NCBI GenBank assembly: GCA_000092065.1
Contig: CP000592.1
Direction: 5' to 3' (one strand)
DNA length: 64,000 bases
From: Ostreococcus lucimarinus
Lineage: Eukaryota
The notes under the pieces are model-generated. The model made no database searches. It saw only the letters and a program-made list of their open reading frames with translations, and was not told where the DNA came from. Every line of letters begins with the position of its first letter. Position 1 is the first letter of the stretch. Position numbers and translations under genes: made by a program. This document shows, piece after piece, positions 45,601 through 64,000 of the stretch.

Positions 45601-45670
45601 ACGTCGCGTTCTGAAGCATCGGCTGTTCTCTTAATACATGTCTCTGCGAACGACGCGAACTCACGCGAAA

Positions 45671-48689: not shown

Positions 48690-50948
48690 CTACGATCTCG
48701 AGACGTAGCGGTTGCCCTCGAGCGTGAAGGTGGGTTTGGTGACGATGATGGTCTCATCGGTGTCGTCGTCGATCAAGGCAAAGTACGTCGATACCAATTC
48801 CGCCAAGCAACGGTGGAAGAGGTCGTTGGCGCGCCAGTCGCGCGCGGCGCCGAAACACGACACGCAGTCTTCGTGCGCCGCTTTCAAAGCATCACGCCAT
48901 TCGCGTTGAAACGCGACGAGTGCGTCACGAATGACGAGTGCATCAATGCTCGCGCCTTCACCGCTCCGACGGCGTCGCGAAATCGTCGTAATTCTCGGGA
49001 AGCGCTCCGCCAACGCGTGCGACACAAACGCTTTGGACTCTTCGATGAGTTTTTCTTCAAAGAAGTGCAGACTCGCGAGTTCTGTGGCGAGTTCGTCATC
49101 CTCAGCGCATCTCTCGACACCGTCATCATCGTTGAGATTCGTCAAAGAGCTTAACGTCGAGCAGATGTGATCGTACGACTTTACCAAATACGCGCTTCGC
49201 GAGCGAGGCGACGCCTTGAGCGAAGCGCACAGCTTACTCGTAACACAGTCGTACATCGACCGTCGCAAACGATCGAGAAACAAATCAACCTGATTCGTAA
49301 CGTTAAGTTCATCCGCAGAAGATGCGCCCATGCGCGAATGTGCCACTGTGGTGAGCGCGAGGACAAAGTTTGCGTATCGCTTCACGATGAAACTCGGCGA
49401 CTCTGGATTGGGCTCGAACGACTCTCGCGTGTCCTCGAGCGACTTGACGTGCGCATCACACGCGTGCTTGAACTTCGGCCAAAGTATCATGTTCAAGTTG
49501 TCGATGTACGCGTCCAGCGCGGGCACTCGGCGACGATTCATCACGCGTCTGTGGGCGTTGTTCACGCGGATGGCAATCAACAGCCCGACGGCGTCGTGCC
49601 CAGACTGCGCAACGCCTTGGGCGACGAAATCGTTGTACGCCATCAGTGGACCGGTGAAAACGATTTCAAACATTTCGCGCTCGCCTTTCCAAAATACTTC
49701 GCAAAACGCATACTCGAACGTCGCGGTGTCTATGAGCAGGCGATGCGCGCTTCGGAACAACTCCTCGTAGGCGTGCGCTTCTTGCCTCACCTTGTCCGAT
49801 TGCCGATGCACCACCAACGGAGGCTCTGTCTCTGCCGCATACATGGCACGCGCGCGATTACCAAGATCAAACAAGCTGTCGCCATTCGTCTCATCAGTCT
49901 TGGACGCACTAGAAGACGCCGGCGACGACGTGATGCCCGCGAACATTCCAGCCAAGGCGTTCGCCGCCGCCGACGCGACGTCGGTCGTCGCCGACGTTGT
50001 TGCCGTCGTCGAGGAAGTCGTGCGCGTCCTGGATGCGAGCAAAACTCGAGATCTAGGCGCTTTTGTGACGCGCTTGAGCGAATCCAAATACGAAGTCATC
50101 GCCGTTTTCAACACTTTTCCCACGACATCCGCGTAAGTGCTCTTCACCTCCCAATACACCTCTGGTCCTCGCTTACGTAGGAACTCGATCAGAGGCGCGT
50201 GTCTCGCGAGTGAATTTTCTTGAATTAACTGTACGTTCGCGCGTGGCTTCTTCAACGCCGCGAATTCACCGTACAAGAAGGCCCAAGCGCGGTCGACCGC
50301 CTTGACGCGCAGTCGCTCGAGTTCTGGCGCGACGTCGTTTACAGCGCGACCCGCGCCTTTCGATGCGGACACACTGAGATGATCCAACTTCACCTCGAGT
50401 TCGCGAACGCCTTCGACAAATCCCCCGTCACCGCCGACGAAGTCGCCGTTAAACACGGCGTTAATCAGCGACGGCGGTACCGAAAGCGCCTCCACCGCGT
50501 CGCCTAATTTTCGCTCAGCTCGCGCGCGGTTTGCACTTCGCACGCGTAAATCTTCGCTCGAACGCTGTAACTCCCTAATTTCCATCGATATACGCCCTAA
50601 ATCGTCCTGAAACGTCTTCAACGTTTGTTCCATGTCGCTCAATATCCCGTCGCACGCGTGCACTTCGCCTTGCAGTTGCAGTAAATTCTCGCACTCATCC
50701 GCGTGAGCGTCGATCGAGCGACGCTCGACGTCCACGAGTTTCATTTCGATCTCCCTCGCGCGTCGATCGAGGGATTCGAAATCACCATCATCGTCATCCT
50801 CGCCGTGCTCGTCGTCGTTTTCTCGTCGCAACAGCGCTCGAATGACTTCGTGATTGGCGTACCGCAGTAACGATGCCGACGTGGGAGTCAGCGTCGACGT
50901 GTCGTTGACGCCGCGCTCGGGTGCTCGCATCACGCTCGTACGATCCAT
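48690..50948 (-). CDS. VPS52: VPS52 (GARP complex subunit, Sac2 family)
   Basis: N-terminal coiled-coil block LQLQGEVHACDGILSDMEQTLKTFQDDLGRISMEIRELQRSSEDLRVRSANRARAERKL is typical of Vps52 (LQ..S..M..RL.NR). Full length about 750 aa is consistent. Confidence 0.7.
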   Translation of the reverse strand: MDRTSVMRAPERGVNDTSTLTPTSASLLRYANHEVIRALLRRENDDEHGEDDDDGDFESLDRRAREIEMKLVDVERRSIDAHADECENLLQLQGEVHACDGILSDMEQTLKTFQDDLGRISMEIRELQRSSEDLRVRSANRARAERKLGDAVEALSVPPSLINAVFNGDFVGGDGGFVEGVRELEVKLDHLSVSASKGAGRAVNDVAPELERLRVKAVDRAWAFLYGEFAALKKPRANVQLIQENSLARHAPLIEFLRKRGPEVYWEVKSTYADVVGKVLKTAMTSYLDSLKRVTKAPRSRVLLASRTRTTSSTTATTSATTDVASAAANALAGMFAGITSSPASSSASKTDETNGDSLFDLGNRARAMYAAETEPPLVVHRQSDKVRQEAHAYEELFRSAHRLLIDTATFEYAFCEVFWKGEREMFEIVFTGPLMAYNDFVAQGVAQSGHDAVGLLIAIRVNNAHRRVMNRRRVPALDAYIDNLNMILWPKFKHACDAHVKSLEDTRESFEPNPESPSFIVKRYANFVLALTTVAHSRMGASSADELNVTNQVDLFLDRLRRSMYDCVTSKLCASLKASPRSRSAYLVKSYDHICSTLSSLTNLNDDDGVERCAEDDELATELASLHFFEEKLIEESKAFVSHALAERFPRITTISRRRRSGEGASIDALVIRDALVAFQREWRDALKAAHEDCVSCFGAARDWRANDLFHRCLAELVSTYFALIDDDTDETIIVTKPTFTLEGNRYVSRS

Positions 50949-51068
50949 AGCGATATACGCGCACTCGCGTCGTGCGAGACGCTCGAACCAGAACGCGCGC
51001 CCTGTTTTGAGGCGTCGATGCAGATGTCTAATACTTTACACTTTCGGGCTACTACGTGAGAAGTTTCC

Positions 51069-51737
51069 TTACTCTTTTTCTACGGGCGCGGGCGCGACTT
51101 TCTTCTTCGCCTTCCCCGATGGCTTTGAATTCTTCGCCGCCGCCGCGTTCGTCGGTTTGCCCTTTGAAGAAGTCTTCTTCGCCTTGCCTTTCCTCTTACC
51201 TTTCGCCGGCGGCGCCTCGCCTCGCGCCTGGCTCAGGCGAAAGCGACGAATCTTTGCCGCCACCCCGTCCAACTCTTCGACTTCATCGTGAAAGTCATCC
51301 AACGTATCGCGATCCGCTTGTCTGGCGATTCGTTCGTTCAAGAGGGAAGGAATGTAGCCAAAGTTGCGGTTTCTCAGCAAGTCCTTGAAAGGTTTTTCGC
51401 CGTGCACCATGCGATGCCAGTTTATGTTGCGTCCAATCTCGCCCCCCGCGCCCGCACACCTGCGGCAGTTCACCGCTCCCTTGCCTTGACAAAACATGCA
51501 CTGAAATGTCTCAATCTTCGCGTTCAACGTCGCGAAATCACCTCGATCCTCCGGCTTTTGCAACTTGCCAGTGGCTTTGCAGTGCTCGCAGCGCATCGTC
51601 TTCGCGCCGCCGCAGAGCGTGCACGTTCGGTGTAACCAGTGCGCGCCGGACTCGCGCGCGGCTGCGATGACGGTGCCGACGAAGCATACCTGCGCGCACA
51701 CGCCCAGGATGCCCTTGATGTCGTCTTCACCACCCAT
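51069..51737 (-). CDS. DnaJ-type zinc-finger (4x CxxC) protein with N-terminal TM anchor and Lys-rich tail (BSD2/LQY1/CYO1-like)
   Basis: CTLCGGAKTMRCEHCKATGK...FQCMFCQGKGAVNCRRCAGAGG gives four CxxCxGxG-type motifs. One TM (ILGVCAQVCFVGTVIAAA). C-terminal KGKRKGKAKK low complexity. Confidence 0.5.
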   Translation of the reverse strand: MGGEDDIKGILGVCAQVCFVGTVIAAARESGAHWLHRTCTLCGGAKTMRCEHCKATGKLQKPEDRGDFATLNAKIETFQCMFCQGKGAVNCRRCAGAGGEIGRNINWHRMVHGEKPFKDLLRNRNFGYIPSLLNERIARQADRDTLDDFHDEVEELDGVAAKIRRFRLSQARGEAPPAKGKRKGKAKKTSSKGKPTNAAAAKNSKPSGKAKKKVAPAPVEKE

Positions 51738-51779
51738 CGATGTCGGCGTCGGGCGTCAGGTTATGCGGTGTAGTGAGGG
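51738..51779. promoter_or_regulatory. Very short (about 40-100 bp) shared 5' region of the divergent DnaJ-ZnF and PWI genes
   Basis: Start codons at 51737 (-) and 51780/51840 (+). Inference. Confidence 0.3.
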
Positions 51780-52469
51780 TTGAGATTTTCTCCGCACTTC
51801 CGCACTCGCGCGCGCTCGAGTCTTTACGCGACGAGCCGCATGAGCACGTACAGACAACCGTTCAGCCGCGGTGCCGCGGCGTTCGGGAAACGACCGAGCA
51901 GCTCATCGAGCGCCAACGCCAAGCTCGCCGAGGCGCTCAAGGTGAAAATTGACATCGACAAGGTTGATTTAGAAGTCATCAAACCGTGGATCTCGCGCGA
52001 GATCACCGCGCTGTTGGGGGTGGAGGACGAAGTTTTGATCGGCATGATCGAGGTGTTGCTAGAAGAGTGCAAGATTCACAAGAATGGCGCACACATGTAC
52101 GCGCAGTTGGAGTCGTTTCTCGAAAAGCAAACCGAAACGTTTTGCGTGCAACTGTGGGAGCTCTTGGCGAGCGCACAGGCGAACGCGGGCAAACACGGAG
52201 AGAAAGGCGTGCCATCGAAATTCATGAAGGATACCGAGGCGCAGCGCAAGCGCGAGGACGAGGCGTACGAGCGCATGAAGAAAAATCAGGAACGCGGTCG
52301 CGACGGTCGACGTTCGCAGCAGAAACCGTATGACCGGCCGCCGCGACGACATAGCAGAGATAGGGTAGGACGCGGCCAAGAGAGGCGACGGGATTCTAGA
52401 AGTCCGCCGCGGCGACGGTCGCGGTGGGGCGCCGACGGTGAGCGGAGCGACGGCAGCGACGACGCGTGA
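51780..52469 (+). CDS. SRRM1: PWI-domain protein, SRRM1/SRm160-like
   Basis: KVKIDIDKVDLEVIKPWISREITALLGVEDEVLIGMIEVLLEE...FCVQLWELLASAQ aligns closely with the SRRM1 PWI domain (VNLEVIKPWITKRVTEILGFEDDVVIEFI...ELWPLLLSAQ). RS/RD-rich tail. Start may be Met51840. Confidence 0.8.
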   Translation: MRFSPHFRTRARSSLYATSRMSTYRQPFSRGAAAFGKRPSSSSSANAKLAEALKVKIDIDKVDLEVIKPWISREITALLGVEDEVLIGMIEVLLEECKIHKNGAHMYAQLESFLEKQTETFCVQLWELLASAQANAGKHGEKGVPSKFMKDTEAQRKREDEAYERMKKNQERGRDGRRSQQKPYDRPPRRHSRDRVGRGQERRRDSRSPPRRRSRWGADGERSDGSDDA

Positions 52470-52578
52470 AGGAGGCGAGACACTCATCGAGGTTGAACCG
52501 CGGCAAAACTCAAGATGGAGAAAATTTGTAAAATGTTGAATTCATTATTTCATCAAGTTCATCGCGCACGAGTACAAT

Positions 52579-54597
52579 CTACGCTGCCACGGTTTTCGGC
52601 CACTTGTCGTGAATCCAGCTCTTGAACTTTGCACACGCCGGCAAGAAACCTCCGTTTTCGGCACTATCGGCGATGACCTCGTCGCCATGGACGAATAGCA
52701 TGCGCATGTCCAAATCAACATCGCTCGTAGATGTGGCTTCGGCTAGAGATTTTTCATAAGCCTCACGTTCACTCTTGACAAGTTCTTCGACGTCTTCGCC
52801 GAGTTCTTTGACCCAAGCGTCGTGCGACAAAGGCTTGCCAGTGAGATTATTCACCAACCCGAGGAAGCCCGGCTTGCCGCTGCCGGCACGCCAGTACTCG
52901 GCTTCGAGCGTTGGACCGACTTTTGGGTTATCGACAATGTATCCCTCGGTGCGGAAGAAATGCTCTCGAGTTTGGTGCACGGCCATCTCTGCGAACACGT
53001 ATCCGTGGTAGTATGCGGACGACTCGTCGGCCAAGATGTGCGGCACGCTCATCAACGGACGACCGCTGAAACCTCCTTGAATCTTTTCTTCAATCTCATC
53101 AGCGACGCGGCAAATGTTTTCCGTCGTCAATTGATCTTCCGAAAGCTCGTACAAAGCCTTCTCAAAGTACGGCACGGCGATCATCCCGCGCAGCGCCATG
53201 ACCTTATAAGGGTGCTTTTGTCGAATATTTCGTTCAATCAACTCCCAAGGAATGACGTTGCCCTTGCGATCCTTCGCGTATCGCGCTTGCCACGCAGCGT
53301 CTTCGCACAAGGCGTCGAGAAACATTGATTGTGTCTCCGCCAAGGCGACAGAGAACGGCGCCCGCTCTTGCGCAAACACCGGAGAACCTTGAACGATGTT
53401 GGCAAAGTGCGCGGCGTGTCCGCCTTCGTGCATCAGCGTCGTCAAGGCGGTGTTACCGCTACCAATTTCATCAGGCGTGGCGAGCGAGGTAAAGTTCGAC
53501 TCAGACGGCACCCACGTGCCATCAGTTTTCTTGAACGGCGGCGTCGGCCAGTGGCAAAAACCGTTGGGATACTTGCCGACGCGATCGCATAAATCCAGTC
53601 GCATAGTCGTGCCTTTGTAACCAATCTTCATCGCCCCGAACGAGCGTCCCCAGACCTCGGGAGCGTTTTCAAATGGATAATACGGATCAATCAACTGCGT
53701 CAACTCTCCGCTGAGCGCGTACGCTGTGTTCCATCCCTTGGTCGCGTCTTCGCCCTTTTCCGCCTTGAGCCTGTCGCGCGCGGCGTGCATGAGCGGTCGC
53801 GTAGCTTCCTCCAAGCCATCGAGCATCTCGAAGCACTTCTTCTTGTTGAAGCCTTCCGCTTGCGTCACCTTCATGTCGTAAAAATCCTCGAAACCGAGCG
53901 CGCGCGCGAAGCGGTTGCGCTCGGCGATGATGGCTGGGAAGCCGTTGTCGCACAAAAAGGGACCGTTCGCGCGAAGCGTCTCCCAGCAACTCTTGCGCAC
54001 GCACTCCTCATCGCTCGAGCGAATTTTCGTGCGCAACACCGTGGGCGTGGCCGAGACGAACTTGCCGTCCACATCGGTGTACCCGAGCTCTTGTTTATTG
54101 CGCGCCGCTTGCAACGCGTTCTCCTTCGCGATGGCGGATTCGCGCAACGCCACGGCTTCTTTGGACTCGACGATGTAGCACTTGAGCGTTTTTTCGATTT
54201 GCTCCAGCACAATCCTTTGGTCATCCGTGACGTCTTTGGACGCCAACAACTCGCGCGTCTTCGCCAACGTCTCAGCGTCGCCCATGAACGTCTCCAGCGC
54301 GTTGAACGACTTCGTCAGCGCCTCCACGTCGTTCCCTCGCAGGTTCATCTTCGTCGCCCAAAAGTTATCCTCGAACGTCTTGTGCTTGGCCAGGTATTCA
54401 TCGTTGAAAGCGTCGATGAAGGACGCCGGCGTCGTCGTCGCCGAGTTCGCCATGACGTGACGTCCTCGTCCTCTCGCGGCGACGTTTCCGACGACGGCGC
54501 GCTCGCGAGCGCGTCGAGCGAGCGTCGAGGCCGAGCGCGTCGAGGTCGAGTTCAACGCCGATCCGCGATGCGTGATCACTCGAGCGATGACGCGCAT
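52579..54597 (-). CDS. Zinc metallopeptidase, M3-like (neurolysin/oligopeptidase-fold gluzincin) with presequence
   Basis: HEGGHAAHF...(about 25 aa)...ALAETQSMFLD matches the M3 HExGHxxH...E.PSQ.xEN arrangement; about 600-aa mature length. ORF runs to 55002; start trimmed to Met54597 (the 48 aa before MANSATT look like a targeting peptide). M2/M32 relatives not excluded. Confidence 0.55.
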   Translation of the reverse strand: MRVIARVITHRGSALNSTSTRSASTLARRARERAVVGNVAARGRGRHVMANSATTTPASFIDAFNDEYLAKHKTFEDNFWATKMNLRGNDVEALTKSFNALETFMGDAETLAKTRELLASKDVTDDQRIVLEQIEKTLKCYIVESKEAVALRESAIAKENALQAARNKQELGYTDVDGKFVSATPTVLRTKIRSSDEECVRKSCWETLRANGPFLCDNGFPAIIAERNRFARALGFEDFYDMKVTQAEGFNKKKCFEMLDGLEEATRPLMHAARDRLKAEKGEDATKGWNTAYALSGELTQLIDPYYPFENAPEVWGRSFGAMKIGYKGTTMRLDLCDRVGKYPNGFCHWPTPPFKKTDGTWVPSESNFTSLATPDEIGSGNTALTTLMHEGGHAAHFANIVQGSPVFAQERAPFSVALAETQSMFLDALCEDAAWQARYAKDRKGNVIPWELIERNIRQKHPYKVMALRGMIAVPYFEKALYELSEDQLTTENICRVADEIEEKIQGGFSGRPLMSVPHILADESSAYYHGYVFAEMAVHQTREHFFRTEGYIVDNPKVGPTLEAEYWRAGSGKPGFLGLVNNLTGKPLSHDAWVKELGEDVEELVKSEREAYEKSLAEATSTSDVDLDMRMLFVHGDEVIADSAENGGFLPACAKFKSWIHDKWPKTVAA

Positions 54598-55394
54598 GCG
54601 ACACGAGGCGGTGTGTGACGATCTCGATGACGACGGGACGACGCGCCTCTCATCCAGCGAGACCCCGCAGACGTCGTCGCCGACGCTGGCGCGGGCACCG
54701 CGCGCGCGATGACGCCGCCGGCGTCCGTCGATGGCGACGACGTGCGCCAAGACACCGACGACGTCGTCATCGCGCGTGCGCTGCGCGCGACGCTCGTGCA
54801 CGTCTGCACCGCGCGCGGGTCGTTGAAGTCGTGCTGACCGAGCGAAGTTCCGAGACGCGTGTTCGGGGGTAAATCGGCGCCCGCAGGCGACGACTCGCGC
54901 TTGAGACGGGCGATTCGAGGGAAATCGTGGCGCGATTACATGGAGCTCACGCGACGGATCGCGATCGAGGAAGCGGAGCGCGGGAAGATTGAAATCACTC
55001 AAAAGGGCGAGGCGGTGTCGCCGCCGAGCACGTTCAGGGGACCGATTCGATTGCGATTGCGACGGACGGCAACGGTGAACATTGGTGACGGCGAAGTTAA
55101 AGTCGAAGGTGCAGCGTCGCAGCCGTCGTCGAAGAGGCGTAAACGAAACGTTTCGCCAAACTAACGGTCGCTCGTGAAGGCTCGAGCGGAAACGGCGACG
55201 CTCCGTCGCGCGCGCTCGACGCCCGATACGCCGTTAGAGTTCACCGATGCGGTCGGCAAATAGAATTGTAATACCGATTTTCATGATACATCGCTTGAAC
55301 AAGTTCAGCCTTAGCGACCTCGGACGCGGTCAAAGACGTGTGCGATTGTACAATAGACAAAGATTATATCCGATTGCTTGACGTTCGAAGTACT

Positions 55395-56165
55395 CTAAAC
55401 ATAATTCGTTGTTTCATAGGAAGGAGTAGGAAAATCATAGCAGCGGGCCATCCAGTTTGCAGGCGGTGACCAGCCTGTCACCACCGCATGGTGATCTCTC
55501 CAGTCTCTAGGTTCCCAGCCGGGGGAGAGCTTCAAAGAACGAATATATTCCAGTGTGTCCAGTGCTTCCACATTGCGAAGCTTTTCGTCATCTCTTTTTT
55601 CCACCAACACGCAGAATTCATTTACTTCCGCTACGCCCTCGCCGGCTTTTCTTTCTATTTTGTACATGCCGGCTCTGCATTGGAGGCCCATATTGAAAAG
55701 CTTAGCCTCGTTGACTTGCTGACAAACTTTCTTAAATGCCTCTACCATTTGCGGCGGTGTGTTTCGCACCGGGCCGCTTACAGAGCAGCACAAGCATCGG
55801 ATCGTTTCACAAATGGGCCACCCCCCCATGTCCTGTAGTGCGCCGTTCAAGATATCTACAAGCTCGTTCGCCACGGGTGAGTTTCTCGACCAATCTGGGT
55901 CCCGGGGACGCTTGGAAGGCACTTCAGCCAATTGTGCAACGTGCCTTTGGTACAAAGGCACGTCGCACGCGACTGAATCCGTCATCACGGAGTGCGAAGC
56001 GGGACGGTGGGGCGCCTTTATGTGGGTATGGGTTTCCAGCAGGGGAGCGATGTGCCAGGATGGTACATCGCGCGACACGAAGTCGATCGGGATTTTCTTC
56101 TGACATTGAAGAACTGCGAGCAGGTCGGGGTGATAGAATGCTGGCGCGCTTAGCGAACCACCCAT
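55395..56165 (-). CDS. Hypothetical protein with a putative N-myristoylation signal (MGGSLSA); Cys-rich; lower GC
   Basis: Clean 256-aa ORF divergent from the giant ORF; no family recognised. Confidence 0.4.
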   Translation of the reverse strand: MGGSLSAPAFYHPDLLAVLQCQKKIPIDFVSRDVPSWHIAPLLETHTHIKAPHRPASHSVMTDSVACDVPLYQRHVAQLAEVPSKRPRDPDWSRNSPVANELVDILNGALQDMGGWPICETIRCLCCSVSGPVRNTPPQMVEAFKKVCQQVNEAKLFNMGLQCRAGMYKIERKAGEGVAEVNEFCVLVEKRDDEKLRNVEALDTLEYIRSLKLSPGWEPRDWRDHHAVVTGWSPPANWMARCYDFPTPSYETTNYV

Positions 56166-56405
56166 GACGCGCTGAGATTTCTTTTCTCGTGCACGCGCGC
56201 GTTTTGTTTCATTCGTGCCTGTGCGTCGCTCGCGTCGCGGAGTGATGCTCGTGTCGTCCGTCTTTCGACGGGTCTAGGGTTTCAGTGCTTCGTCGAATCT
56301 GGGGAAAAACCATTTTGCTTGAGCACGGCGAGACTTTCAAGACGCACCTGACAGAGCGGTGCGCGCAGGCCACGCAGCTCGCAGTGGGGGCGCGTCTCGT
56401 CGTGA

Positions 56406-59400
56406 GTGACGATGTCGGAGGCGGTGCTCACGGCGAGTGAACCCGTCGGGCCGGTGCAGGCGCCGGCGGACGCGGCGGCGGCGCCGGCGAGGGAGACGAT
56501 TGGGGCTTTTTCGCTCGCGCGGGCGAAGAGTTCGGTGCGGAGACTGAGCCAGTCGAAGCGGGAGCGGCGCGGGGAGACGACGAAGACGCGGTTCACGGAG
56601 GTGACGACGGTGGTGGGCGCGCGGGAACGCGGGAGCGATGGTGCGGCGGATGAGGACGTCGGTGGGTCGGCGCGGGAGAGAGACGACGCGAGACGTTTGC
56701 GAAAAAGAGAATCGGTCAAGGTGAACATGCTTCGCGCGAGGACGTTCAAGGCGATGAATGGGGGCGGCGGCGCGAGCGGGCGCGGCAACGGTAGGGTGTT
56801 CGTGGACGTGGAGACCGGGGATAGTTTCGTGTCCACGGGGGATCTCACGAGCGTGGATGAGAAACGGTTCCGCGAACTCGACGCCGAGGGCGTGTTGGAG
56901 GTGGTGAAACTCGTCGAGGGAGGCGAGCAGGTGCTGATGAGTTCGGTGCAACCGTCGCTGTTGGAGAATTTGTCCACTCTTCCAGTGCAGGTGGAAGTCG
57001 GATGGGCGGGTGATTCCTGGCGCGCGGTGCTTCGAATGTTGATGATCGCGTCGTACGACGACGTCAATCGACTTCGATTTACTCGAGGTTTGGACGCCGC
57101 GATGCACTTTCTCAGCGGCGCCGAATCCTTCTTGCTCGGATCCGTCATCTCGGCGTACGAGTCTGGAAACACCAGTGATCTCAAGCGATTGCTTCGTCAT
57201 GCCTTTTTGAATCGCAACGTCAGTCGAGTGCTCGTGCAGCAAATGTCTCGTTACGACATTTTCTGGCACACGCACTGGTCGGTGAAATTTAACAGAATGA
57301 TGGACGCGTTCGGCACCGTTCCCGTGATCGGATTCACCGGTTTCCCATCCTCTGAAAACTTCCAAAACACGCGAAACTTTGTCGTTGGCTCCTTCTTCCG
57401 CGTGTTCCTCGGTCAAGGCAACTGGATCACTCGTGTTCTCACCGGACGCGAGGCGCTCATCACCGACGATCCGAACGTCGTCGCGCAAAATCTCGCCGCG
57501 GAGACGAACAGTTTCGAGGCATCCAACCTCGCACAACACGGTGCGTTTGTCGGACGCATGAAGACGAACGAATTCCGCGCCAATCATCGGTTACCGACGG
57601 ATGAGAGCGTCGTTCGTACCTTTGCCGTGTCGCCGTCGAGCACGCTTGTGAACAACGGCGTCGTGCACGTGGTGTCGCAGTTGGCGAGACATTGGCACAG
57701 CATGCTCGACCAACCGTACGGTAACTTTGCGCATCAACGCCAAGAGCAGCTGAATCCGTTGGAGACGCTTCGATTCCACATGCCCGTCGTCTTGTTTACT
57801 CTCGCCAATTTGCGAGGCTTGAATGCGTGGGACTCCACCGTGTTGGCGCCCGTGCTCAAAAAGTTGCAAAACATCCCGCCGGTGGCCAACGCGGTCATGA
57901 TCAAGCCCATCGTTCGTATGATTTCTAAGGAGCTCGCCGCGAACGTGTGCGGCGGAAGTAAGATAATTTACGATCCCTTTAAGAGTTGGTTGAAAGCCAT
58001 CGAGAGGAGTCTCACGCGGTTGGACGAGGAAGCGCAACAAGTCGCGTTGATCTGCAGCGCGGTTCAGAATGGCGTCGCAATTGGACACAGCGCGATCGCG
58101 CAAAGTAATTTCATCGCGCCGACCGAAGCGCAAATGAAGCAGGCTGTGCACTCTGTGTGTCTCGGCGAGCCCGTCAGTACGAAGTGCGGCGTCACTGAGG
58201 TGCAAGTCAAATCGGCTCTCAATTTGCTCGCGCCGAGAGACAAGCGCATGCTCATTCAACTCGTAAAGAGCGGTTACACAAATTCTAAAGCTGTCGTGTT
58301 ACTCACATCGAGAGCTTGCACACTCCTCAGCCGCAACATCAGACGGGAAGCGCTGTCCAAGACAATCGTCAAGATGTCAAAGGGTGACGAAGTTGCGAAC
58401 TTTGACACGAAAAAGGCGTACTGGGTCAAGGATCAGTACGGCGTCGGCCGCGTGTATATTTTTGAACGCGAGAATACGGACGGAACCTGCACGTTTACGG
58501 ATCGCGCCACGCGCGCAGAGCACTGCTTCGACTTTTCAAAGTCCACACTCAGCGCGTACAAGTATGTCGAAGTTGGCGAGTCGATCGTTCGCGCGCAAAA
58601 GGCGTTCATGACGATCGAATTAGACCACGGCTCGGTTTTCTCTTACGCTTCATTCATGGAGTTGTCCTTTTTGCGTTCGCCACTTCGACAACTGCTGGTA
58701 TTGTCACAATTCCACTGCGAAGAAATCGACGATGCTCGTCTCAATATCTTATCAGCCATCAAGCACTCTGCGACGCGAACCGAAGTGACCGTGAAAGAGC
58801 TGAAACTTGGTCAGCGATACTTTGTCTACGAGGAGAAATCGTACACGCCTTTCTTGTTCGACGAAGCTTTGCAAAGTGATAAGGCGCGCTTGTCGGCGCT
58901 CAAGATGAAGAAGATTGTCACCGTGCCGCCGCAGTCGATGATTGTCATCGGAGGCGGTCCGACTGGTTTGCTCACAACCCTTCACTGCCTCGAAAACGTC
59001 TTGTTAAGCGATGGCGTCATGCGCATCTATGAATCGCGCGATGCTTTCACTCAGGCTGGCGCAACTTTCGAAAGAGCGCAGATTGTTCGACTGGACGCGC
59101 GCTGGATCGCATGTCTTCGTTTCCATCTCGGTACAATTTACGAGGATGTTTTCATTCCAACCCCGGGTGATACGAGCTCACACTACGGCAACGTGCTTCC
59201 GTCGCAAGGCTTCATCGAGATCACCATCAAGGATTTGGAGAATATGATGAACGTGGGCGTTTCGCAACGTCTCTCTCGTGGATTGCTGACGCAAGATACG
59301 AATAGCGGCGCGCAGTACGACGTACGACAAAACAAGCTGATCAAAACGGGCAAGGCGCTCAAGATTACTGACTTGATTCTGCGTAAAGTCGATAACGAAG

Positions 59401-62400
59401 GATCTCCATCCGACGAACCCTTCTCTTGGAAGGTGGTCGACGTCGTGTACAACAAATCTTACTTGGCGACGGATCTCAAACTCGGTGAAGTTTATTCCGT
59501 GTACATCTTGGATCAACAGCAATGCTTACCGTATCGACTTGTCGGTGTCAATATCGACAAGGAATTCTATGAATTCAAGTCAATTCATTCCGCGTACGAC
59601 GACTTTGCGTGCTTTGCAAATAAGCTGCCGTCCGTCTATCACAAGGATACAAAGGCACACTCTTTGGTGGAAAGTTTGGTCATCGAATCCGTCATTCGCG
59701 GAAGCGACGGAAAGTATGTGCAAGAGGTGCTGCCTTACAACGAGATTGCCTCACAGAAGTTTGAGCTGGACATCGAGCACTACCACGTCGTCGAGGCCAT
59801 CGGTAAGCCCGCTGGCAGTCCGGTGCACTTTGCAATCACGCAGACCGAGCCGTACGGCGTGGCTTGTCTCGCGGGACTCAAGGTGAGCCAAGGCATGCAC
59901 AACTTTGGTAACTCGAGATGGCGCAGCAGAGTGGTCGATGACATTCGCAGTCACACGGATCAGAACACTCGCATCGTCGGTGACTTTACCAAGGTTGTCA
60001 ACTCTCAGAAAATCACGAAGAAGATGCTCAAATTCATCACCAAGGATGTCGATTGGCGTCTCCACTTTGAGCGTCTCGTCGGGGATTGTGGATTTTCTGC
60101 AGAAATGCCAGAAATTTGGCAGACGATGTGCACGCTCGTCAAACAACACACAAAGCAAGCTCCCTACGTCCGACGTCATCTGCAGACGCGCTTCTTCGAG
60201 ACTGGCGACAACTTCTACCTCGGTATGGAGTTGACGAGAGAATACGACGAATGGAAAACGAAGACAGTTGATTCATTGGTCAAGTCTACGCTCACGTGGA
60301 ACTCCAAGCCGAAGAACGCACAAGATATTAAGAAGAAAGAGGACAAGTTACGAAACCTGAAGGGCGCTCTCACCAGATCGATCGACCGTCTCTGGTACGA
60401 CGCAACTCTCGAGACAATTCGCTTCGGCGACGTGTACAACCCAGGTGGACAGCAGTTCATTCCTCGTCTTTATTTCATCGATTCGTTGACTCCGGTCACT
60501 CTTGGGTCTTTGCCTGGATTCGAGAGCTTTAGAGTCGTCGACCAACCGAACGACCGTTACGATGTCATCATGACTGGTGTGTCGGGCGCCGTCGTGCGCA
60601 ACGTCGAAGGTTACGTTTCCAAGATGTCCAACTCCACCATGGTGTATCGAGGAAGTAACCTCACTCGAGCGCCGAACGGAAACACCGAATCAAAGGTTTC
60701 GATGGCGACGTTCCCCGTGGCGCACTACGTCAATCACCGCACGATGCGCGTGCGCTCGGACAGCAAAGATAAGGGATACGTCTTCGCTTTCTGCGGCGAT
60801 GAACAGAGCACCCCGCACTTTATGCGTTACTCTGGTCTTACCGGTGCGTGCATCAACAGTATGCTCTTCAACAACTTTATCGGCGACGCGATTATCGGCG
60901 TAGCGTTCCAAGATCGCTTCCGCACGTACTCGAGCTCGACCAACTGGTCGAACGGTGAAGTCGTCACGCGCGGTACCGGCGCCAACTACGGCGTCGATGG
61001 TTTCCTTCGACCGTCGTTTCCGTACAAGGAGGGCGTCCGCTATCTGTATTCGAAGTACATCGAGTGTCGCGAGAGCGATAATGACGTCGCTCAACTGCTG
61101 ACGGATGACTGGAAGGTGAAGTTCTGTTCGGCTCTCATCCCCAGAGGCCTCGAAGACAATCAATCGTACCTCTCCGCGCTGAGCGAGCAAATGTCTCACG
61201 TCATTTACGAAGTCTTCATGGAGGAGGTTGGCAAGGATCCCAGCTTCACCGCCATGGACTTGTGCGATCGTCTCGCCGAGGCGAACGACAAGGTCGGCGA
61301 GAGCGACGAACCGTGGCGAGAACTTCTCGAACGCGCAAATATTTCCGACGACACGAAAAAGATGCTCACGGAAAAACACGTGTGGATCGCGAACAGCTTG
61401 GATGCATTGACGCAAGAGCTCATCGAGTACGCCTCATTCTTGCGAGAAAATGGATTCCGTTTCACGAGTTACGCGGAAAAACAGCCGAATCCGGTCGACT
61501 CCGTCATCGATAGCACCTCTGTCGAAACGCAAGCTTTCGCCGAAGGTCTCACCATGAGCGCGGCGCTCGCCGCCGCGGCGCTCGTCTTGTCGACTTCGAA
61601 TCCGCTTAGTGCCGCCGCGCTGTCCGCGTTCACGCCGATCGTCGCCTTCGGTACCATCACCGGGGCGAGTCGATACAAGAACAGAAACGAAGAGTGGCTC
61701 GTCGCGTACAAGGACAATTTGTTCAAGCAGGCTGAACGAGGCGCGTACGACGTCATGTCGCGCGATGCTCAAAAACAGTCTCTGCACGCGAGTCCGTACG
61801 TGAACGACTTGCGATCCATGATGGATGCGTTCGTCAAGATGTGCGCGTATTACAACTTCCCCGAGCCCAAAGAATTGTTTCACCACTTCGAAGCCTTCGT
61901 GGAAGACGTGCACGGCGACAGAGCGTGCTCTGAATTCGACGAGTATCTCGTGTCGGTGGCCATAGCGGAGACGTTTTACAAGAGCGCGTATCTTCAAGAT
62001 CACCTCGTGAAGATGCACGAAGTCGTGGGAGACATGATGTACTGGCGGTCTCAGAGCAGTGAACCCGGAACGGCTGTTGATATGCAGGCGCAGTGCTTAT
62101 TCGAGCGCGTCGTCGTGCTTCGTCGCGTGCTCGAAAAGTCTATTCGTCGCGGTCACATCAGATTTGGCTTCATCAGAACGGGCAATTACTCCAAGTCTCA
62201 CGTCGGTGACCTCGTCAAGTTCTGGATAAACATCCTGATGTACCCAATCTTGCTCTTTCGTCGTGATGACTTGTCGCCCTCAAACGCTCGCGCCTCGGCC
62301 AAGGCGTGGTACAAGCCGGCGAACATCGCCATCACGGAGACGGCGAGGGACGCGCGAGCGCTCGCGGAGCGCGCGAGTCACGCGAAATTGGCTCGCGCAG

Positions 62401-63215
62401 CCTTTGATCTGGAGAGCTTCACCATCGCGTCGAACGAGAGTTACACCGCGAGTTTCATCATTTTTTCGGCGCTTCTCTCATTCTGCACGGGTATCGTCTT
62501 CACGATCGGTAACATCGCCGCTCGCGTCAAGGTGCAAAAGTGGTCCACCGACTTGACCTCGGCGGGTTCGTACTCGTTCGGTCTCGTCACCCCGCTCTCC
62601 GCCATCTTGGCCCTGTTCTGGTTATCTCGAGTCCAGTTCCACATCATTCGACTCGCGTTGCTCCTCAACACGAAGATGAAACCGTTATCCGACGAACCGC
62701 GCGGCAAGTTGAAGAGTTGCATCAAAATGGCGCTCGCCCAGGGTCTGTTGACGCAAGTGAGAATGTGCATCGCTCTCGCGACCGCCGTCGCCCTTCCGTG
62801 GGCGCTCTGCGTGCGTGAAGCCTCTACTTTCGGTCTCAACTTCACCGACCGATCTGAGAACGTTCCCTTCTACATCGCCTCTGTCGCCGTCATCGCCTCC
62901 GTCGTCTCCTGGTTCGTCTTCTTTTGGAAGGAGTACGTCGTTCGCTACAACCTCCCGTCCAAGCTCGGGCAACACGTCTGCGCCGCCTTTCTGGACGACA
63001 TCGAACACAACCGACAAACCGTCGACATCCCTCACTCTTCCACCCTCGATCACCACCGTCTCGAACGCACGACGTGGGAATACGCCGCTCGGGTCTTCAT
63101 TCGCAAGTATCGATTCGACGCCGTCTTCGGCGCCGACCGCTTTGGAAGTCTCCTCCAGTACGTCCAATCCGGGTGCGTCGTCTCCGCCCGCGGCGAATCG
63201 CCGATGTCCGTCTGA
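56406..63215 (+). CDS. Giant (2269 aa) single-exon hypothetical protein: central flavoprotein-monooxygenase-like core with dinucleotide-binding GxGxxG motif and C-terminal multi-TM anchor
   Basis: Uninterrupted 6.8-kb ORF, lower GC than genome-typical genes. A Rossmann FAD/NAD site MIVIGGGPTGLLTTLHCLE is followed by MRIYESRD. About 650 aa downstream lies a GD...G.TG.(C)IN motif (FCGDEQSTPHFMRYSGLTGACINSMLF) like the PHBH-type GDAAH...GxGxN block. Four to five predicted TM helices span aa 1900-2150. No family recognised for the other ~1500 aa. Confidence 0.6.
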   Translation: MTMSEAVLTASEPVGPVQAPADAAAAPARETIGAFSLARAKSSVRRLSQSKRERRGETTKTRFTEVTTVVGARERGSDGAADEDVGGSARERDDARRLRKRESVKVNMLRARTFKAMNGGGGASGRGNGRVFVDVETGDSFVSTGDLTSVDEKRFRELDAEGVLEVVKLVEGGEQVLMSSVQPSLLENLSTLPVQVEVGWAGDSWRAVLRMLMIASYDDVNRLRFTRGLDAAMHFLSGAESFLLGSVISAYESGNTSDLKRLLRHAFLNRNVSRVLVQQMSRYDIFWHTHWSVKFNRMMDAFGTVPVIGFTGFPSSENFQNTRNFVVGSFFRVFLGQGNWITRVLTGREALITDDPNVVAQNLAAETNSFEASNLAQHGAFVGRMKTNEFRANHRLPTDESVVRTFAVSPSSTLVNNGVVHVVSQLARHWHSMLDQPYGNFAHQRQEQLNPLETLRFHMPVVLFTLANLRGLNAWDSTVLAPVLKKLQNIPPVANAVMIKPIVRMISKELAANVCGGSKIIYDPFKSWLKAIERSLTRLDEEAQQVALICSAVQNGVAIGHSAIAQSNFIAPTEAQMKQAVHSVCLGEPVSTKCGVTEVQVKSALNLLAPRDKRMLIQLVKSGYTNSKAVVLLTSRACTLLSRNIRREALSKTIVKMSKGDEVANFDTKKAYWVKDQYGVGRVYIFERENTDGTCTFTDRATRAEHCFDFSKSTLSAYKYVEVGESIVRAQKAFMTIELDHGSVFSYASFMELSFLRSPLRQLLVLSQFHCEEIDDARLNILSAIKHSATRTEVTVKELKLGQRYFVYEEKSYTPFLFDEALQSDKARLSALKMKKIVTVPPQSMIVIGGGPTGLLTTLHCLENVLLSDGVMRIYESRDAFTQAGATFERAQIVRLDARWIACLRFHLGTIYEDVFIPTPGDTSSHYGNVLPSQGFIEITIKDLENMMNVGVSQRLSRGLLTQDTNSGAQYDVRQNKLIKTGKALKITDLILRKVDNEGSPSDEPFSWKVVDVVYNKSYLATDLKLGEVYSVYILDQQQCLPYRLVGVNIDKEFYEFKSIHSAYDDFACFANKLPSVYHKDTKAHSLVESLVIESVIRGSDGKYVQEVLPYNEIASQKFELDIEHYHVVEAIGKPAGSPVHFAITQTEPYGVACLAGLKVSQGMHNFGNSRWRSRVVDDIRSHTDQNTRIVGDFTKVVNSQKITKKMLKFITKDVDWRLHFERLVGDCGFSAEMPEIWQTMCTLVKQHTKQAPYVRRHLQTRFFETGDNFYLGMELTREYDEWKTKTVDSLVKSTLTWNSKPKNAQDIKKKEDKLRNLKGALTRSIDRLWYDATLETIRFGDVYNPGGQQFIPRLYFIDSLTPVTLGSLPGFESFRVVDQPNDRYDVIMTGVSGAVVRNVEGYVSKMSNSTMVYRGSNLTRAPNGNTESKVSMATFPVAHYVNHRTMRVRSDSKDKGYVFAFCGDEQSTPHFMRYSGLTGACINSMLFNNFIGDAIIGVAFQDRFRTYSSSTNWSNGEVVTRGTGANYGVDGFLRPSFPYKEGVRYLYSKYIECRESDNDVAQLLTDDWKVKFCSALIPRGLEDNQSYLSALSEQMSHVIYEVFMEEVGKDPSFTAMDLCDRLAEANDKVGESDEPWRELLERANISDDTKKMLTEKHVWIANSLDALTQELIEYASFLRENGFRFTSYAEKQPNPVDSVIDSTSVETQAFAEGLTMSAALAAAALVLSTSNPLSAAALSAFTPIVAFGTITGASRYKNRNEEWLVAYKDNLFKQAERGAYDVMSRDAQKQSLHASPYVNDLRSMMDAFVKMCAYYNFPEPKELFHHFEAFVEDVHGDRACSEFDEYLVSVAIAETFYKSAYLQDHLVKMHEVVGDMMYWRSQSSEPGTAVDMQAQCLFERVVVLRRVLEKSIRRGHIRFGFIRTGNYSKSHVGDLVKFWINILMYPILLFRRDDLSPSNARASAKAWYKPANIAITETARDARALAERASHAKLARAAFDLESFTIASNESYTASFIIFSALLSFCTGIVFTIGNIAARVKVQKWSTDLTSAGSYSFGLVTPLSAILALFWLSRVQFHIIRLALLLNTKMKPLSDEPRGKLKSCIKMALAQGLLTQVRMCIALATAVALPWALCVREASTFGLNFTDRSENVPFYIASVAVIASVVSWFVFFWKEYVVRYNLPSKLGQHVCAAFLDDIEHNRQTVDIPHSSTLDHHRLERTTWEYAARVFIRKYRFDAVFGADRFGSLLQYVQSGCVVSARGESPMSV

Positions 63216-63814
63216 CGGCCGCGCGCGCGTCCTCCACCGGCCGGCGTCGTCACGTACACTATTCATTGATACTCATAATACTCATAATAATCATCGTTGG
63301 TATACTTTCGCGTTCGCGTCCATCCTTCGCGTCGTCTCTCTCTCGTCTCTCGCGTTTGGATAAAACGCCACGGATTCATAATAATCTCCGCACACGCATC
63401 CGCATCCGCACACGCCGACGCCCCGCCCGTCGATCGGTCCGTCCATGCATAAAGGATCCTCCGCAGGCTTTCCACTCAAATCGACTGTGTGTCACGCAAG
63501 AGGAGTGCTTGGGGTTCCATTATTTTCACAGAGGACAAACTACGACTGGTCGTTTGTCGTCCAACACGAACACTGCAGAAGGAACTTTGACGCAAGAGTC
63601 CGGAGCCGTCCGGAGCGTCGAGGGGGAAGTCTGCGGTGCCGTGCTGGGCGATGAGTGATGGCCGTAGGGTGTCGTGAAGGTGCACAGGAAGGATGCGAAT
63701 GCTAGTGACTTTTCGGGTTTAGTACGACCCAGAGAACCTAGGGTAGGGTGTAATAAGTATTAGCTAGTCGGTCGGTTACGGCACTTCTCCCGAAGCGCCT
63801 CCCTCCCTCATGCG

Positions 63815-64000
63815 TAGGGTTTAGGGCTTTGGTTTAGGGTTTAGGGTTTAGGGTTTAGGGTTTAGGGTTTAGGGTTTAGGGTTTAGGGTTTAGGGTTTAG
63901 GGTTTAGGGTTTAGGGTTTAGGGTTTAGGGTTTAGGGTTTAGGGTTTAGGGTTTAGGGTTTAGGGTTTAGGGTTTAGGGTTTAGGGTTTAGGGTTTAGGG
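63815..64000 (+). repeat. Telomere: (TTTAGGG)n array, G-strand 5'->3' toward the window end (right chromosome end), preceded by about 600 bp of subtelomere
   Basis: From 63832 perfect TTTAGGG units run to the end of the window (at least 24 units); degenerate units TAGGGTTTAGGGCTTTGG lie at 63815..63831. Confidence 0.95.

What the first reader, a model, noticed from the sequence alone, without database searches (positions are those of the whole stretch)
55200..63815. Lower-GC subtelomeric island carrying two divergently transcribed orphan genes
From about 55.2 kb to the telomere the composition drops visibly (AT-rich words such as aatagaattgtaataccgattttcatgatacatcg) and the CG-rich GCGCGACG spacers seen elsewhere vanish. 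The island holds only the putatively myristoylated Cys-rich 256-aa orphan (55395..56165, minus) and the giant ORF (56406.., plus), head-to-head with about 240 bp between them. This could be a co-regulated lineage-specific module or a foreign segment captured at the chromosome end.
Basis: seen in the sequence. Interest (0 to 1): 0.55.

Follow-up and report, generated by a model that had tools for sequence, protein, structure and literature searches.

The report
Rearranged chromosome end, not foreign DNA
The last 8.6 kb of this Ostreococcus lucimarinus chromosome is a patchwork of native genes moved there by recent rearrangements, including a 2,267-residue membrane protein with a flavin-monooxygenase domain, and it is neither foreign DNA nor a pair of orphan genes.

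Summary
The window is a chromosome end of Ostreococcus lucimarinus CCE9901.

The GC dip is real but modest: 55.1% against 60.0%. The giant gene has ordinary codon usage (GC3 0.70). Only the small gene is a true compositional outlier.

Neither gene is an orphan. The giant protein has 462 homologous clusters. It contains a group A (MICAL/PHBH-like) flavin-monooxygenase fold and a C-terminal multi-pass membrane region. The small protein belongs to a family with a conserved N-terminal MG(C/G)xxS motif, and a paralogue was recovered from metagenomic contigs beside genes that CCE9901 carries on a 709-kb chromosome.

In related Ostreococcus lineages the giant gene is chromosome-internal, in conserved synteny (PigN … giant … apyrase). 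Here homology to that locus covers only 56388-63447. It starts 22 nt before the ATG and stops exactly after the neighbouring apyrase gene's ATG. Then come 368 unmatched nt and the telomere. A 99.9%-identical wild haplotype keeps the apyrase gene.

The island is therefore a recent mosaic made by translocation and a new chromosome end. It is not a foreign insert or a conserved two-gene module.

The parts
54940..55164 (+). DUF3253 gene (74 aa). It is the last gene of the ordinary chromosome arm and marks the proximal edge of the island.
   Evidence: Pfam PF11625, E 1e-10. Called gene in L007 and L010.
55165..55442 (.). Low-GC stretch holding the quoted AT-rich words and the last 16 codons of the small ORF. 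It has no counterpart at the paralogous locus.
   Evidence: Sequence. Homology to the paralogue starts at 55443. It matches only CCE9901-like contigs.
55395..56165 (-). Small gene, 256 aa (XP_001420877 / A4S636). It has a predicted N-myristoylation motif (MGGSLS) and belongs to a conserved family. It is a compositional outlier.
55443..56256 (-). Segment paralogous to the small-gene locus that lies beside the Apple-domain/PAP/RRS1 genes. Identity is 88.6% nt at 55443-55914 and 74% at 56028-56256, with extra sequence of roughly 40-50 codons in between that the 206-212-aa paralogues lack.
56257..56387 (.). 131-nt junction filler with no match in any fetched locus. It contains one telomere-like TAGGGTTT at 56275-56282.
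56388..63447 (+). Relocated block: 22-24 nt of leader, the giant gene, its 232-nt 3' intergenic region and the ATG of the former downstream apyrase gene. It is 98.4-98.7% identical to relatives whose flanks are different.
56412..63215 (+). Giant gene, 2267 aa (XP_001420717 / A4S637). The family is conserved from about aa 200 to 1700.
58899..61031 (+). Group A flavin-monooxygenase fold (about aa 830-1540). It carries invariant GGGPTG (847-852) and GDEQSTPHF…GLTGACIN (1462-1482), with large insertions.
61533..62939 (+). C-terminal region with about 6-7 hydrophobic, helix-length segments (aa 1708-2176). This is a predicted multi-pass membrane anchor.
   Evidence: Kyte-Doolittle scan.
63448..63814 (.). 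About 368 nt of terminal sequence with no match in relatives. It replaces the apyrase gene that follows in the wild haplotype L010.
   Evidence: The junction is crossed by 30 nt in the separate contig L006.
63815..64000 (+). Telomere, (TTTAGGG)n, 26.7 copies, running to the window end.

Best explanation
The island is a recent structural mosaic at the end of a standard O. lucimarinus chromosome. It was assembled from native Ostreococcus sequences by ectopic rearrangement.

Shown:
1. In three related lineage groups, 90%, 96% and 98.4% identical at this gene, the giant gene lies inside a conserved block: RED_N, PigN, Ank, 1103-aa, 336-aa, 223-aa, then GIANT, then apyrase, 276-aa, S1, deaminase, HisIE, Usp, ORC1.
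2. In CCE9901-like genomes a breakpoint 22 nt upstream of the ATG joins the gene to a diverged duplicate of a small-gene locus that lies beside the Apple-domain/PAP/RRS1 genes in metagenomic contigs (CCE9901 carries those flanking genes on a 709-kb chromosome).
3. In CCE9901 the chromosome ends after a second breakpoint placed exactly after the apyrase ATG. That breakpoint is followed by 368 unmatched nt and the telomere. A 99.9%-identical wild haplotype still carries the apyrase gene there.

Inferred:
- The events were a translocation or inversion followed by breakage and acquisition of a new end, by telomere capture or healing.
- The head-to-head arrangement is a by-product. It gave the giant gene a new 5' region.
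- The lower GC mostly reflects the giant gene's own amino-acid composition (low GC1 and GC2, normal GC3), plus the atypical small gene and AT-richer junction DNA.

Function:
- The giant protein is most likely a membrane-anchored FAD-dependent group A monooxygenase acting on an unknown substrate. The fold and motifs are shown. The activity is inferred.
- The small protein is most likely a lipid-anchored (N-myristoylated) peripheral membrane protein. This rests on the motif only.
For: Identity of the locus:
- Exact matches to XP_001420717 and XP_001420877 of CCE9901, on a chromosome of about 539-540 kb.

Internal synteny in relatives:
- L015, L022 and L032 are contigs of 103-147 kb with the gene far from their ends.
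- L015 and L008 are collinear over 26.8 kb at about 88% nt. Flank proteins are 77-96% identical and the giant protein about 90%, so it evolves at the background rate.
- The 10 places shown of the 24 longest contigs (52-174 kb) read for the 90% lineage all keep the same order.

Breakpoints:
- Window homology to these loci is confined to 56388/56390-63447, or to 63286 in a third context.

Junctions are real:
- The left junction is present in independent metagenome contigs L010/L011 and L034.
- L010 shares window-specific SNPs to within 10 nt of 63447, then continues into its own apyrase allele, 95.8% identical to L015.
- L006, from a separate read set, crosses 63447 by 30 nt at 100% identity.

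Small-gene paralogy.
Composition.
Protein fold.
Breadth of the families.
Against: - I could not locate the apyrase-side and PigN-side blocks in the CCE9901 genome. The chimeric homologue search failed, and 90% clusters of flank proteins showed no CCE9901 member. The reciprocal junction, and the choice between translocation and duplication, are therefore unverified.
- That absence could also mean the 98.4% lineage is not conspecific with CCE9901, which would leave room for introgression.
- Whether the 368-nt terminal piece is a shared subtelomeric element is unknown.
- The right-hand junction rests on the reference assembly plus only 30 nt of one other contig.
- The metagenomic contigs are not taxonomically labelled. 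'Lineage' is inferred from identity levels.
Confidence: 0.8

Rival explanations
1. The island is a foreign segment, viral, bacterial or from a distant eukaryote, captured at the chromosome end by horizontal transfer.
For: - GC is lower than the rest of the window.
- The small gene has deviant GC3 and CpG o/e.
- Neither protein has a Pfam family.
Against: - The giant gene is syntenic and diverges at the same rate as its flanks between two Ostreococcus lineages.
- Its GC3 and CpG are normal.
- Neither gene has a relative in IMG/VR viral contigs.
- The small gene has a paralogue in metagenomic contigs, beside genes whose products are identical or >=90% similar to CCE9901 proteins on a 709-kb chromosome.
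Confidence: 0.03
2. The two genes form a conserved, co-regulated, lineage-specific functional module that shares a bidirectional promoter.
For: - They are head-to-head with a 246-bp spacer.
- The arrangement is present in wild CCE9901-like contigs L010 and L034.
- A transcript-sized contig, L006, starts 50 nt inside the small gene's coding region, so the 5' ends may overlap.
Against: - The pairing is absent from every other context of the giant gene (tblastn of the small protein).
- The spacer is itself a three-piece mosaic: 91 nt from the paralogue's upstream region, 131 nt unmatched, 22-24 nt of giant-gene leader.
- Small-gene paralogues pair with other genes: a 250-aa gene and a DUF285 giant ORF.
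Confidence: 0.05
3. The giant gene is a recurrently relocating gene-sized cassette, or a rearrangement hot spot tied to the gene, moved by a specific mechanism. Candidates are templated break repair, RNA-mediated copying and telomere-associated capture. On this reading it is not a passive passenger of one translocation.
For: - At least four flank contexts occur among sequences 90% or more identical: the ancestral one, the PALP/PseudoU/LHC one (12 contigs, homology only from -275 to +71 around the gene), the CCE9901 one, and L020.
- There is also a 2.2-kb insertion variant 152 nt upstream of the ATG.
- All breakpoints lie within about 300 nt of the gene ends.
- A telomere-like TAGGGTTT lies in the left-junction filler, and a TTTAGG-like string lies at the PALP-type junction.
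Against: - Breakpoints differ between events. I found no shared 6-mers, direct or inverted, at the junctions, so no target-site duplications or terminal repeats, and no poly(A) tract.
- The oceanic 90% lineage is completely stable.
- The protein shows no recombinase-like domain in Pfam, and its one recognisable domain is a monooxygenase.
- Compact genomes put breakpoints close to gene ends by default.
Confidence: 0.1
4. The terminal structure is an assembly artefact of the reference genome or of the metagenomic contigs used for comparison.
For: One comparison contig, L005, is a clean mosaic. It is 100% L036-type left of about 55695 and 100% window-type right of it. It is probably chimeric or recombinant.
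Against: - The left junction is seen in three independent sources besides the window: L007, L010/L011 and L034.
- The right junction is crossed by L006.
- L010 cannot be a k-mer chimera, because it carries window-specific SNPs 10 nt before the junction and its own allele after it.
- The ancestral context is supported by more than 20 long contigs.
Confidence: 0.03

Closest known systems
Subtelomeric rearrangement and chromosome-end renewal (ectopic exchange, breakage followed by telomere capture or healing), as described in yeasts, Plasmodium and Chlamydomonas (for example bioRxiv 10.1101/2021.01.29.428817, seen)
   Same: Terminal position, a mosaic of segments with different origins, strain-specific structure, and a breakpoint followed directly by a short unique stretch and telomere repeats.
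   Different: No multi-copy subtelomeric repeat arrays or tandem gene families are visible here. The relocated piece is a single-copy conserved gene. Only one chromosome end was available, so sharing of the 368-nt element among ends is untested.
Low-GC outlier chromosomes of Mamiellophyceae (part of chromosome 2, and the small hypervariable chromosome 19 of O. tauri; PMC5498103)
   Same: Lower GC than the genome average, genes without known domains, and documented translocations of genes from standard chromosomes with strain-to-strain structural variation.
   Different: This is 8.6 kb at the end of a standard chromosome of about 540 kb. The main gene has normal GC3 and CpG. I saw no tandem repeats other than the telomere array.
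MICAL and other group A (PHBH-type) FAD-dependent monooxygenases and halogenases
   Same: The predicted fold of aa 781-1600 matches MICAL1/3, PhqK, KMO, CndH, VioD and UbiH. The GxGxxG and GD fingerprints are invariant across the family.
   Different: Sequence identity is about 10%. No Pfam FAD_binding_3 hit reaches threshold. There are no CH or LIM domains. The fold is interrupted by large insertions and embedded in a 2267-aa protein, between a 600-aa conserved N-terminal region of unknown fold and a multi-pass membrane region.
N-myristoylated or dually acylated small membrane-associated proteins (MGxxxS/T, MGC motifs)
   Same: N-terminal MGGSLS here and MGCxxS in most relatives. G2 is conserved in at least 90% of the aligned members.
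   Different: There is no recognisable domain downstream. The family motifs (FYHPDLL, DPDWSRNSP, GGWP, NEAKLFNMGLQCRA, WSPPxNWM) match nothing in Pfam, NCBIfam or PDB.

Membership tests
Group A flavoprotein monooxygenase (PHBH/MICAL fold) | N-terminal beta-alpha-beta dinucleotide-binding motif GxGxxG, followed by an acidic residue at the end of strand 2 | tested here: met
   VIGGGPTGL at aa 845-853, with E874, R876 and D877 invariant in 9 homologues. A weak Rossmann-type Pfam hit covers aa 823-859.
Group A flavoprotein monooxygenase (PHBH/MICAL fold) | C-terminal GD fingerprint (GD…P…G.G.N) that contacts the flavin ribityl | tested here: met
   FCGDEQSTPHFMRYSGLTGACIN at aa 1460-1482. G1462, D1463, P1468, G1475, G1478 and N1482 are invariant. 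Reading this as the GD motif rests on my knowledge of the family.
Group A flavoprotein monooxygenase (PHBH/MICAL fold) | Overall three-dimensional fold | tested here: met
Group A flavoprotein monooxygenase (PHBH/MICAL fold) | DG motif; FAD binding and NAD(P)H-dependent oxygenation | not testable with these tools
   I could not place the DG motif with confidence. Activity needs biochemistry.
MICAL family proper | Monooxygenase domain followed by calponin-homology and LIM domains | tested here: not met
   No CH or LIM hit in Pfam on the full protein or on segments. The C-terminus is hydrophobic multi-pass instead.
Orphan (taxonomically restricted) gene | No detectable homologue outside the species | tested here: not met
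   Giant: full-length homologues at 34-52% identity, 462 clusters at E <= 1e-3. Small: 115 clusters down to 33% identity. The taxa of the hits are not labelled, so the exact phylogenetic breadth is unknown.
Horizontally acquired / viral island | Composition and codon usage unlike the host, relatives in donor genomes, absence from sister lineages | tested here: not met
   The giant gene's GC3 and CpG are normal. It is syntenic in sister lineages. There are no IMG/VR relatives. Only the small gene is compositionally odd.
Mamiellophyceae low-GC outlier-chromosome region | Sustained low GC over a large fraction of a chromosome, with deviant gene structure and content | tested here: not met
   The dip is 8.6 kb, 55.1% against 60.0%, and another 8.6-kb stretch of the same window reaches 56.0%. 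No tandem repeats other than the telomere.
Subtelomere | Directly adjacent to telomere repeats and structurally variable between strains | tested here: met
   Telomere from 63815. The wild haplotype L010 differs beyond 63447.
Subtelomere | Sequence elements shared among several chromosome ends | not testable with these tools
   Only one chromosome end is in the window. The 368-nt terminal piece matched nothing fetched.
N-myristoylated protein | Met-Gly start with a small residue at position 6 (MGxxxS/T), conserved in relatives | tested here: met
   MGGSLS here. G2 is nearly invariant and S/T is frequent at position 6 across 24 aligned members. Lipidation itself is not testable here.

The most novel reading that the evidence does not exclude
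The 7-kb giant gene behaves as a recurrently relocating, gene-sized unit. At least three or four independent events, among lineages less than 10% diverged, have breakpoints within about 300 nt of its ends, and telomere-like remnants lie at two junctions. This would point to an undescribed mechanism in Mamiellophyceae, for example telomere-associated capture or templated break repair, that moves single genes between internal and terminal positions. The gene also represents a large, unannotated family of membrane-bound MICAL-like flavoenzymes in marine picoeukaryotes.
Probability: 0.12. Interest if true: 0.7.

Novelty: new member of a known kind. Interest (0 to 1): 0.4.

Why it matters
The finding shows with base-level breakpoints that standard Ostreococcus chromosomes, and not only the known outlier chromosomes, undergo recent strain-specific rearrangements that move conserved genes to a chromosome end and give them new promoters. 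This bears on how these very compact genomes vary within huge natural populations.

It also assigns a first structural handle, a group A flavin monooxygenase fold plus a membrane anchor, to a widespread 2,000-2,400-residue protein family that is annotated only as 'predicted protein'. It further defines a small, probably lipid-anchored protein family.

For the scan itself, this is a caution. A local GC dip plus 'no Pfam hit' did not indicate foreign DNA here.

Tried and rejected
- **Chimeric protein query.** I joined the apyrase, the 283-aa protein and a 300-aa flank protein to find their CCE9901 orthologues. It returned only distant apyrases, probably because low-complexity words swamped the candidate list.
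- **Exact-sequence cluster look-ups of flank proteins.** No CCE9901-named member was found for the ancestral or PALP-type flanks, so the present position of those blocks in CCE9901 is unknown.
- **L005.** It first looked like a third location of the gene pair. Column-by-column identity showed a clean switch between two paralogous loci, so I set it aside as a probable chimera or recombinant.
- **Single-sequence AlphaFold of aa 781-1600.** Useless, pLDDT 31. Redone with a 34-sequence alignment.
- **Pfam, NCBIfam and PDB sequence or profile searches on both proteins and on segments.** Nothing beyond a Rossmann fragment.
- **Viral origin.** No relatives in IMG/VR.
- **Look-ups that could not run.** P0376 was not on record. 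The afdb50 fold library was unavailable.
- **Literature.** Palenik et al. 2007 is not held. The accession numbers occur in no held paper. My recollection that O. lucimarinus chromosome 21 derives from pieces of other chromosomes could not be checked and is not used.
- **Junction repeats.** No shared direct or inverted 6-mers at the PALP-type (B) junctions; at the window (C) junctions only two overlapping direct 6-mers (CGCAGG/GCAGGC), read as chance, and no inverted ones. So no target-site duplications or terminal repeats.
- **Rfam and tRNA scans of 50-64 kb.** Empty.
Full report
**Identity of the locus**

Both ORFs match annotated 'predicted proteins' of Ostreococcus lucimarinus CCE9901 exactly. 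They are XP_001420717/A4S637 (2267 aa) and XP_001420877/A4S636 (256 aa). They lie on a chromosome record of about 539-540 kb. The window ends in 26.7 copies of the plant-type TTTAGGG repeat starting at 63815. This is therefore a true chromosome end of a standard chromosome.

**Check of the observation**

Confirmed:
- The ORFs are at 55395-56165 (-) and 56412-63215 (+).
- The spacer between them is 246 bp.
- The quoted AT-rich words are present.
- GC of 55200-63815 is 0.551 against 0.600 elsewhere. It is lower than all 466 equally long windows in the rest of the sequence.
- The GCGCGACG/CGTCGCGC motif is depleted: 2 copies against about 11 expected.

Qualified:
- The next-lowest 8.6-kb window, around 44.4-53 kb, is 0.560. 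The drop is shallow.
- The giant ORF is unremarkable against 23 other genes of the window: GC 0.553 (z -1.4), GC3 0.703 (z -0.4), CpG o/e 1.51 (z -1.3). Its low GC comes from codon positions 1 and 2 and from its middle third.
- Six other genes in the window also lack the motif, and over half of the motif copies lie in coding sequence.
- The small ORF is a real outlier: GC3 0.576 (z -2.7), CpG o/e 0.97 against 1.67 ± 0.13.
- The island's 1 kb of non-coding DNA is also low, 0.554 against 0.627.

**The genes are not orphans**

The giant protein:
- It has near-identical copies in hundreds of environmental sequences. The 90% cluster has 477 members, and several of the listed contigs are 7-8 kb, about transcript size.
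- Full-length homologues exist at 41-49% identity.
- An exhaustive HMMER search with aa 200-1399 found 462 clusters at E <= 1e-3 and 165 at E <= 1e-30. These include proteins of 1900-2350 aa at 34-52% identity.
- The nine aligned homologues are densely conserved from about aa 200 to 1700.

The small protein:
- It has 115 homologous clusters from 95% down to 33% identity.
- Conserved motifs are MG(C/G)xxS at the N-terminus, FYHPDLL, DPDWSRNSP, GGWP, KVCxxxNEAKLFNMGLQCRA, VLVEK, WSPPxNWM and a C-terminal PPYNETTNHV.

Neither family has relatives in IMG/VR viral contigs.

**Where the giant gene normally lives**

Metagenomic contigs carrying close relatives fall into clear classes.

*Class A, the ancestral context.*
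- The gene order is RED_N, PigN, Ank, 1103-aa, 336-aa, 223-aa, then GIANT, then apyrase (GDA1/CD39), 276-aa, S1, deaminase, HisIE, Usp, ORC1.
- It occurs at three divergence levels from the window: 98.4% (L015, L016, L018, L022, L032), 96% (L019, L021, L053) and 90% (L008, L009, L023-L029, L043-L052).
- In L015, L022 and L032 the contigs are 103-147 kb and the gene is far from their ends.
- L015 and L008 are collinear across 26.8 kb at about 88% nt. The giant gene is also 88% identical between them.
- Their flank proteins are 77-96% identical. The giant proteins of this divergence level are about 90% identical (window vs L008).
- The gene is therefore an ordinary vertically inherited resident of that locus.
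- In the 90% lineage, the 10 places shown of the 24 longest contigs read (203 index blocks list the gene) all keep this order.

*Other contexts.*
- Class B (12 contigs, 98.7% identical) shares only about 275 nt upstream and 71 nt downstream of the gene. It then continues into a 217-aa gene, cysteine synthase, a pseudouridine synthase and an LHC gene.
- L020 (91%) has yet other flanks.
- L053 (96.7%) keeps the ancestral context but has a 2.2-kb insertion with an ankyrin-repeat ORF 152 nt upstream of the ATG.

**The structure in the window**

Homology of the window to class A is confined to 56388/56390-63447.

*Left junction.*
- Identity begins at GCGCGTCTCGTCGTGAGTGACGATG, 22 nt before the start codon.
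- The whole ancestral promoter and leader region has therefore been replaced.

*Right junction.*
- Identity runs through the 232-nt 3' intergenic region and stops exactly after the ATG of the apyrase gene.
- The window then has about 368 nt that match nothing fetched, followed by the telomere.

*The 246-bp spacer is composite.*
- 56166-56256 resembles the upstream region of a paralogous small gene (77%).
- 56257-56387 is unmatched.
- 56388-56411 is the ancestral leader of the giant gene.

*The small gene is a diverged duplicate.*
- A 206-212-aa paralogue lies convergent to an Apple-domain protein gene, next to poly(A) polymerase and RRS1.
- The products of those flanking genes cluster with CCE9901 proteins on a 709-kb chromosome. 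The poly(A) polymerase is identical to the CCE9901 protein.
- The window copy matches that locus at 88.6% nt (55443-55914) and 74% (56028-56256). In between it carries extra sequence of roughly 40-50 codons.

**Are the junctions real?**

- The left junction is present in L007 (a separate 540-kb record), in an 88.7-kb metagenome contig (L010/L011, 99.9% identical over 18 kb) and in L034 (99.7%).
- L010 continues past 63447 into an apyrase gene. It shares window-specific bases only 10 nt before the junction and has its own allele afterwards, 95.8% identical to L015. It therefore cannot be a de Bruijn chimera.
- L010 thus shows a haplotype with the new left junction but the old right flank.
- The CCE9901 right junction is crossed by 30 nt in L006, a 7,363-nt contig from SRA run SRR1179203. 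L006 is 100% identical to 56115-63477.
- L006 is transcript-sized. If it is a transcript, which is my inference, the giant gene's 5' end overlaps the first 50 nt of the small gene's coding region.
- L005 seemed to place the gene pair beside the PAP genes. It is an exact switch between two paralogous sequences, so I discarded it.

**Most likely history (inferred)**

1. The ancestral state is the internal locus.
2. A breakpoint 22 nt upstream of the ATG joined the giant gene, with its distal flank, to a duplicated small-gene segment next to DUF3253 and the M3 peptidase. This state is seen in L010.
3. In the CCE9901 lineage a second break, at the apyrase start codon, was followed by acquisition of a short unmatched piece and a telomere.

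A 1.5% divergence from the class A 98.4% group is of the order of the intergenic diversity reported within O. tauri, π about 0.01 (PMC5498103). This is compatible with variation within a species or between very close lineages.

Between the window and L015 there are 50 non-synonymous and 26 synonymous codon differences. Between the window and L008 there are 220 and 313. This is the usual excess of amino-acid polymorphism at short distances, or relaxed constraint. I did not pursue it.

**What the proteins are**

*Giant protein.*
- Pfam, NCBIfam and PDB sequence searches give only a Rossmann fragment at aa 823-859.
- An AlphaFold model of aa 781-1600 built on a 34-sequence alignment is confident: pLDDT 82.9, pTM 0.79.
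- Foldseek against the PDB returns MICAL3, MICAL1, PhqK, PnpA, Bmp2 and kynurenine 3-monooxygenase, best E 4.8e-6.
- The GGGPTG and GD…P…G.G.N fingerprints are invariant in the family.
- The fold is split by large insertions.
- A 600-aa conserved region of unknown fold precedes it. Six or seven hydrophobic helix-length segments follow it, at aa 1708-2176.
- I therefore read the protein as a membrane-anchored FAD monooxygenase with unknown substrate. It is not a MICAL in the family sense, because it has no CH or LIM domains.

*Small protein.*
- It has a conserved N-terminal Gly2, with Cys3 in most relatives. This fits N-myristoylation and palmitoylation.
- Nothing else about it could be identified.

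**Verdict**

- It is wrong that the segment is foreign, that the genes are orphans, or that they form a conserved module.
- The kind of event, subtelomeric rearrangement with a new end, is well known. The instance is new.
- It is moderately interesting for Mamiellophyceae genome dynamics and for a large uncharacterised flavoenzyme family.

Noticed in passing
window 56275-56282: A telomere-like TAGGGTTT lies inside the 131-nt unmatched filler at the left junction. Outside the telomere the 8-mer occurs only here and at 2311 (0.22 expected per window). It may be a remnant of a telomere-associated joining event, or chance.
   Followed up: partly
L001 about 7617-7630 (and the other PALP-type contigs); L002, L012, L014, L017, L025, L027, L030 about 12790-12920: In the PALP-type context the breakpoint after the giant gene is followed at once by CTTTAGGCTTTCG. 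This resembles the degenerate first telomere units of the window (TTTAGGGCTTTGG). A two-unit interstitial TTTAGGG repeat lies about 5.3 kb further on.
   Followed up: no
L053 7111-9300 (also L054, L056): A 96.7%-identical lineage has a 2.2-kb insertion carrying an ankyrin-repeat ORF (494-561 aa) 152 nt upstream of the giant gene's ATG. This is another structural variant at the same 5' flank.
   Followed up: partly
window 55395-56165: The small gene's CpG observed/expected is 0.97, against 1.67 ± 0.13 for 23 other genes, and its GC3 is the lowest in the window. The cause is unknown. Possibilities are origin in a differently composed region, low expression or methylation.
   Followed up: no
L041 1-6941: At the paralogous small-gene locus of another genome, the neighbour is a different giant ORF of more than 2720 aa with DUF285 (BspA-like repeat) hits, near the start of a 41-kb contig.
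   Followed up: no
window 56412-63215 compared with L015 and L001: Between near-identical copies there are about twice as many non-synonymous as synonymous codon differences (50 to 26, and 54 to 24). Against the 90% lineage the counts are 220 to 313.
   Followed up: no
window 44400-53000: A second low-GC stretch (8.6-kb windows at 0.560-0.562) covers several ordinary long genes with GC3 0.61-0.67. GC declines gradually over the distal 20 kb rather than stepping down at 55.2 kb.
   Followed up: partly
CCE9901 proteins ABO99724/ABO99758 (poly(A) polymerase) and ABO99545/ABO99580 (RRS1), seen through L005: Each of these proteins carries two GenBank accessions with the same sequence on a 709-kb record. 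This suggests a duplicated segment or duplicated annotation near the paralogous small-gene locus.
   Followed up: no
L005 1-1250: This metagenomic contig switches from 100% identity with one paralogous small-gene locus to 100% identity with the window within about 60 nt (window about 55695-55754). It is either a chimeric assembly or a real gene-conversion or recombination product between paralogues. Several family members (P0013, P0022) show the same mosaic pattern at protein level.
   Followed up: partly
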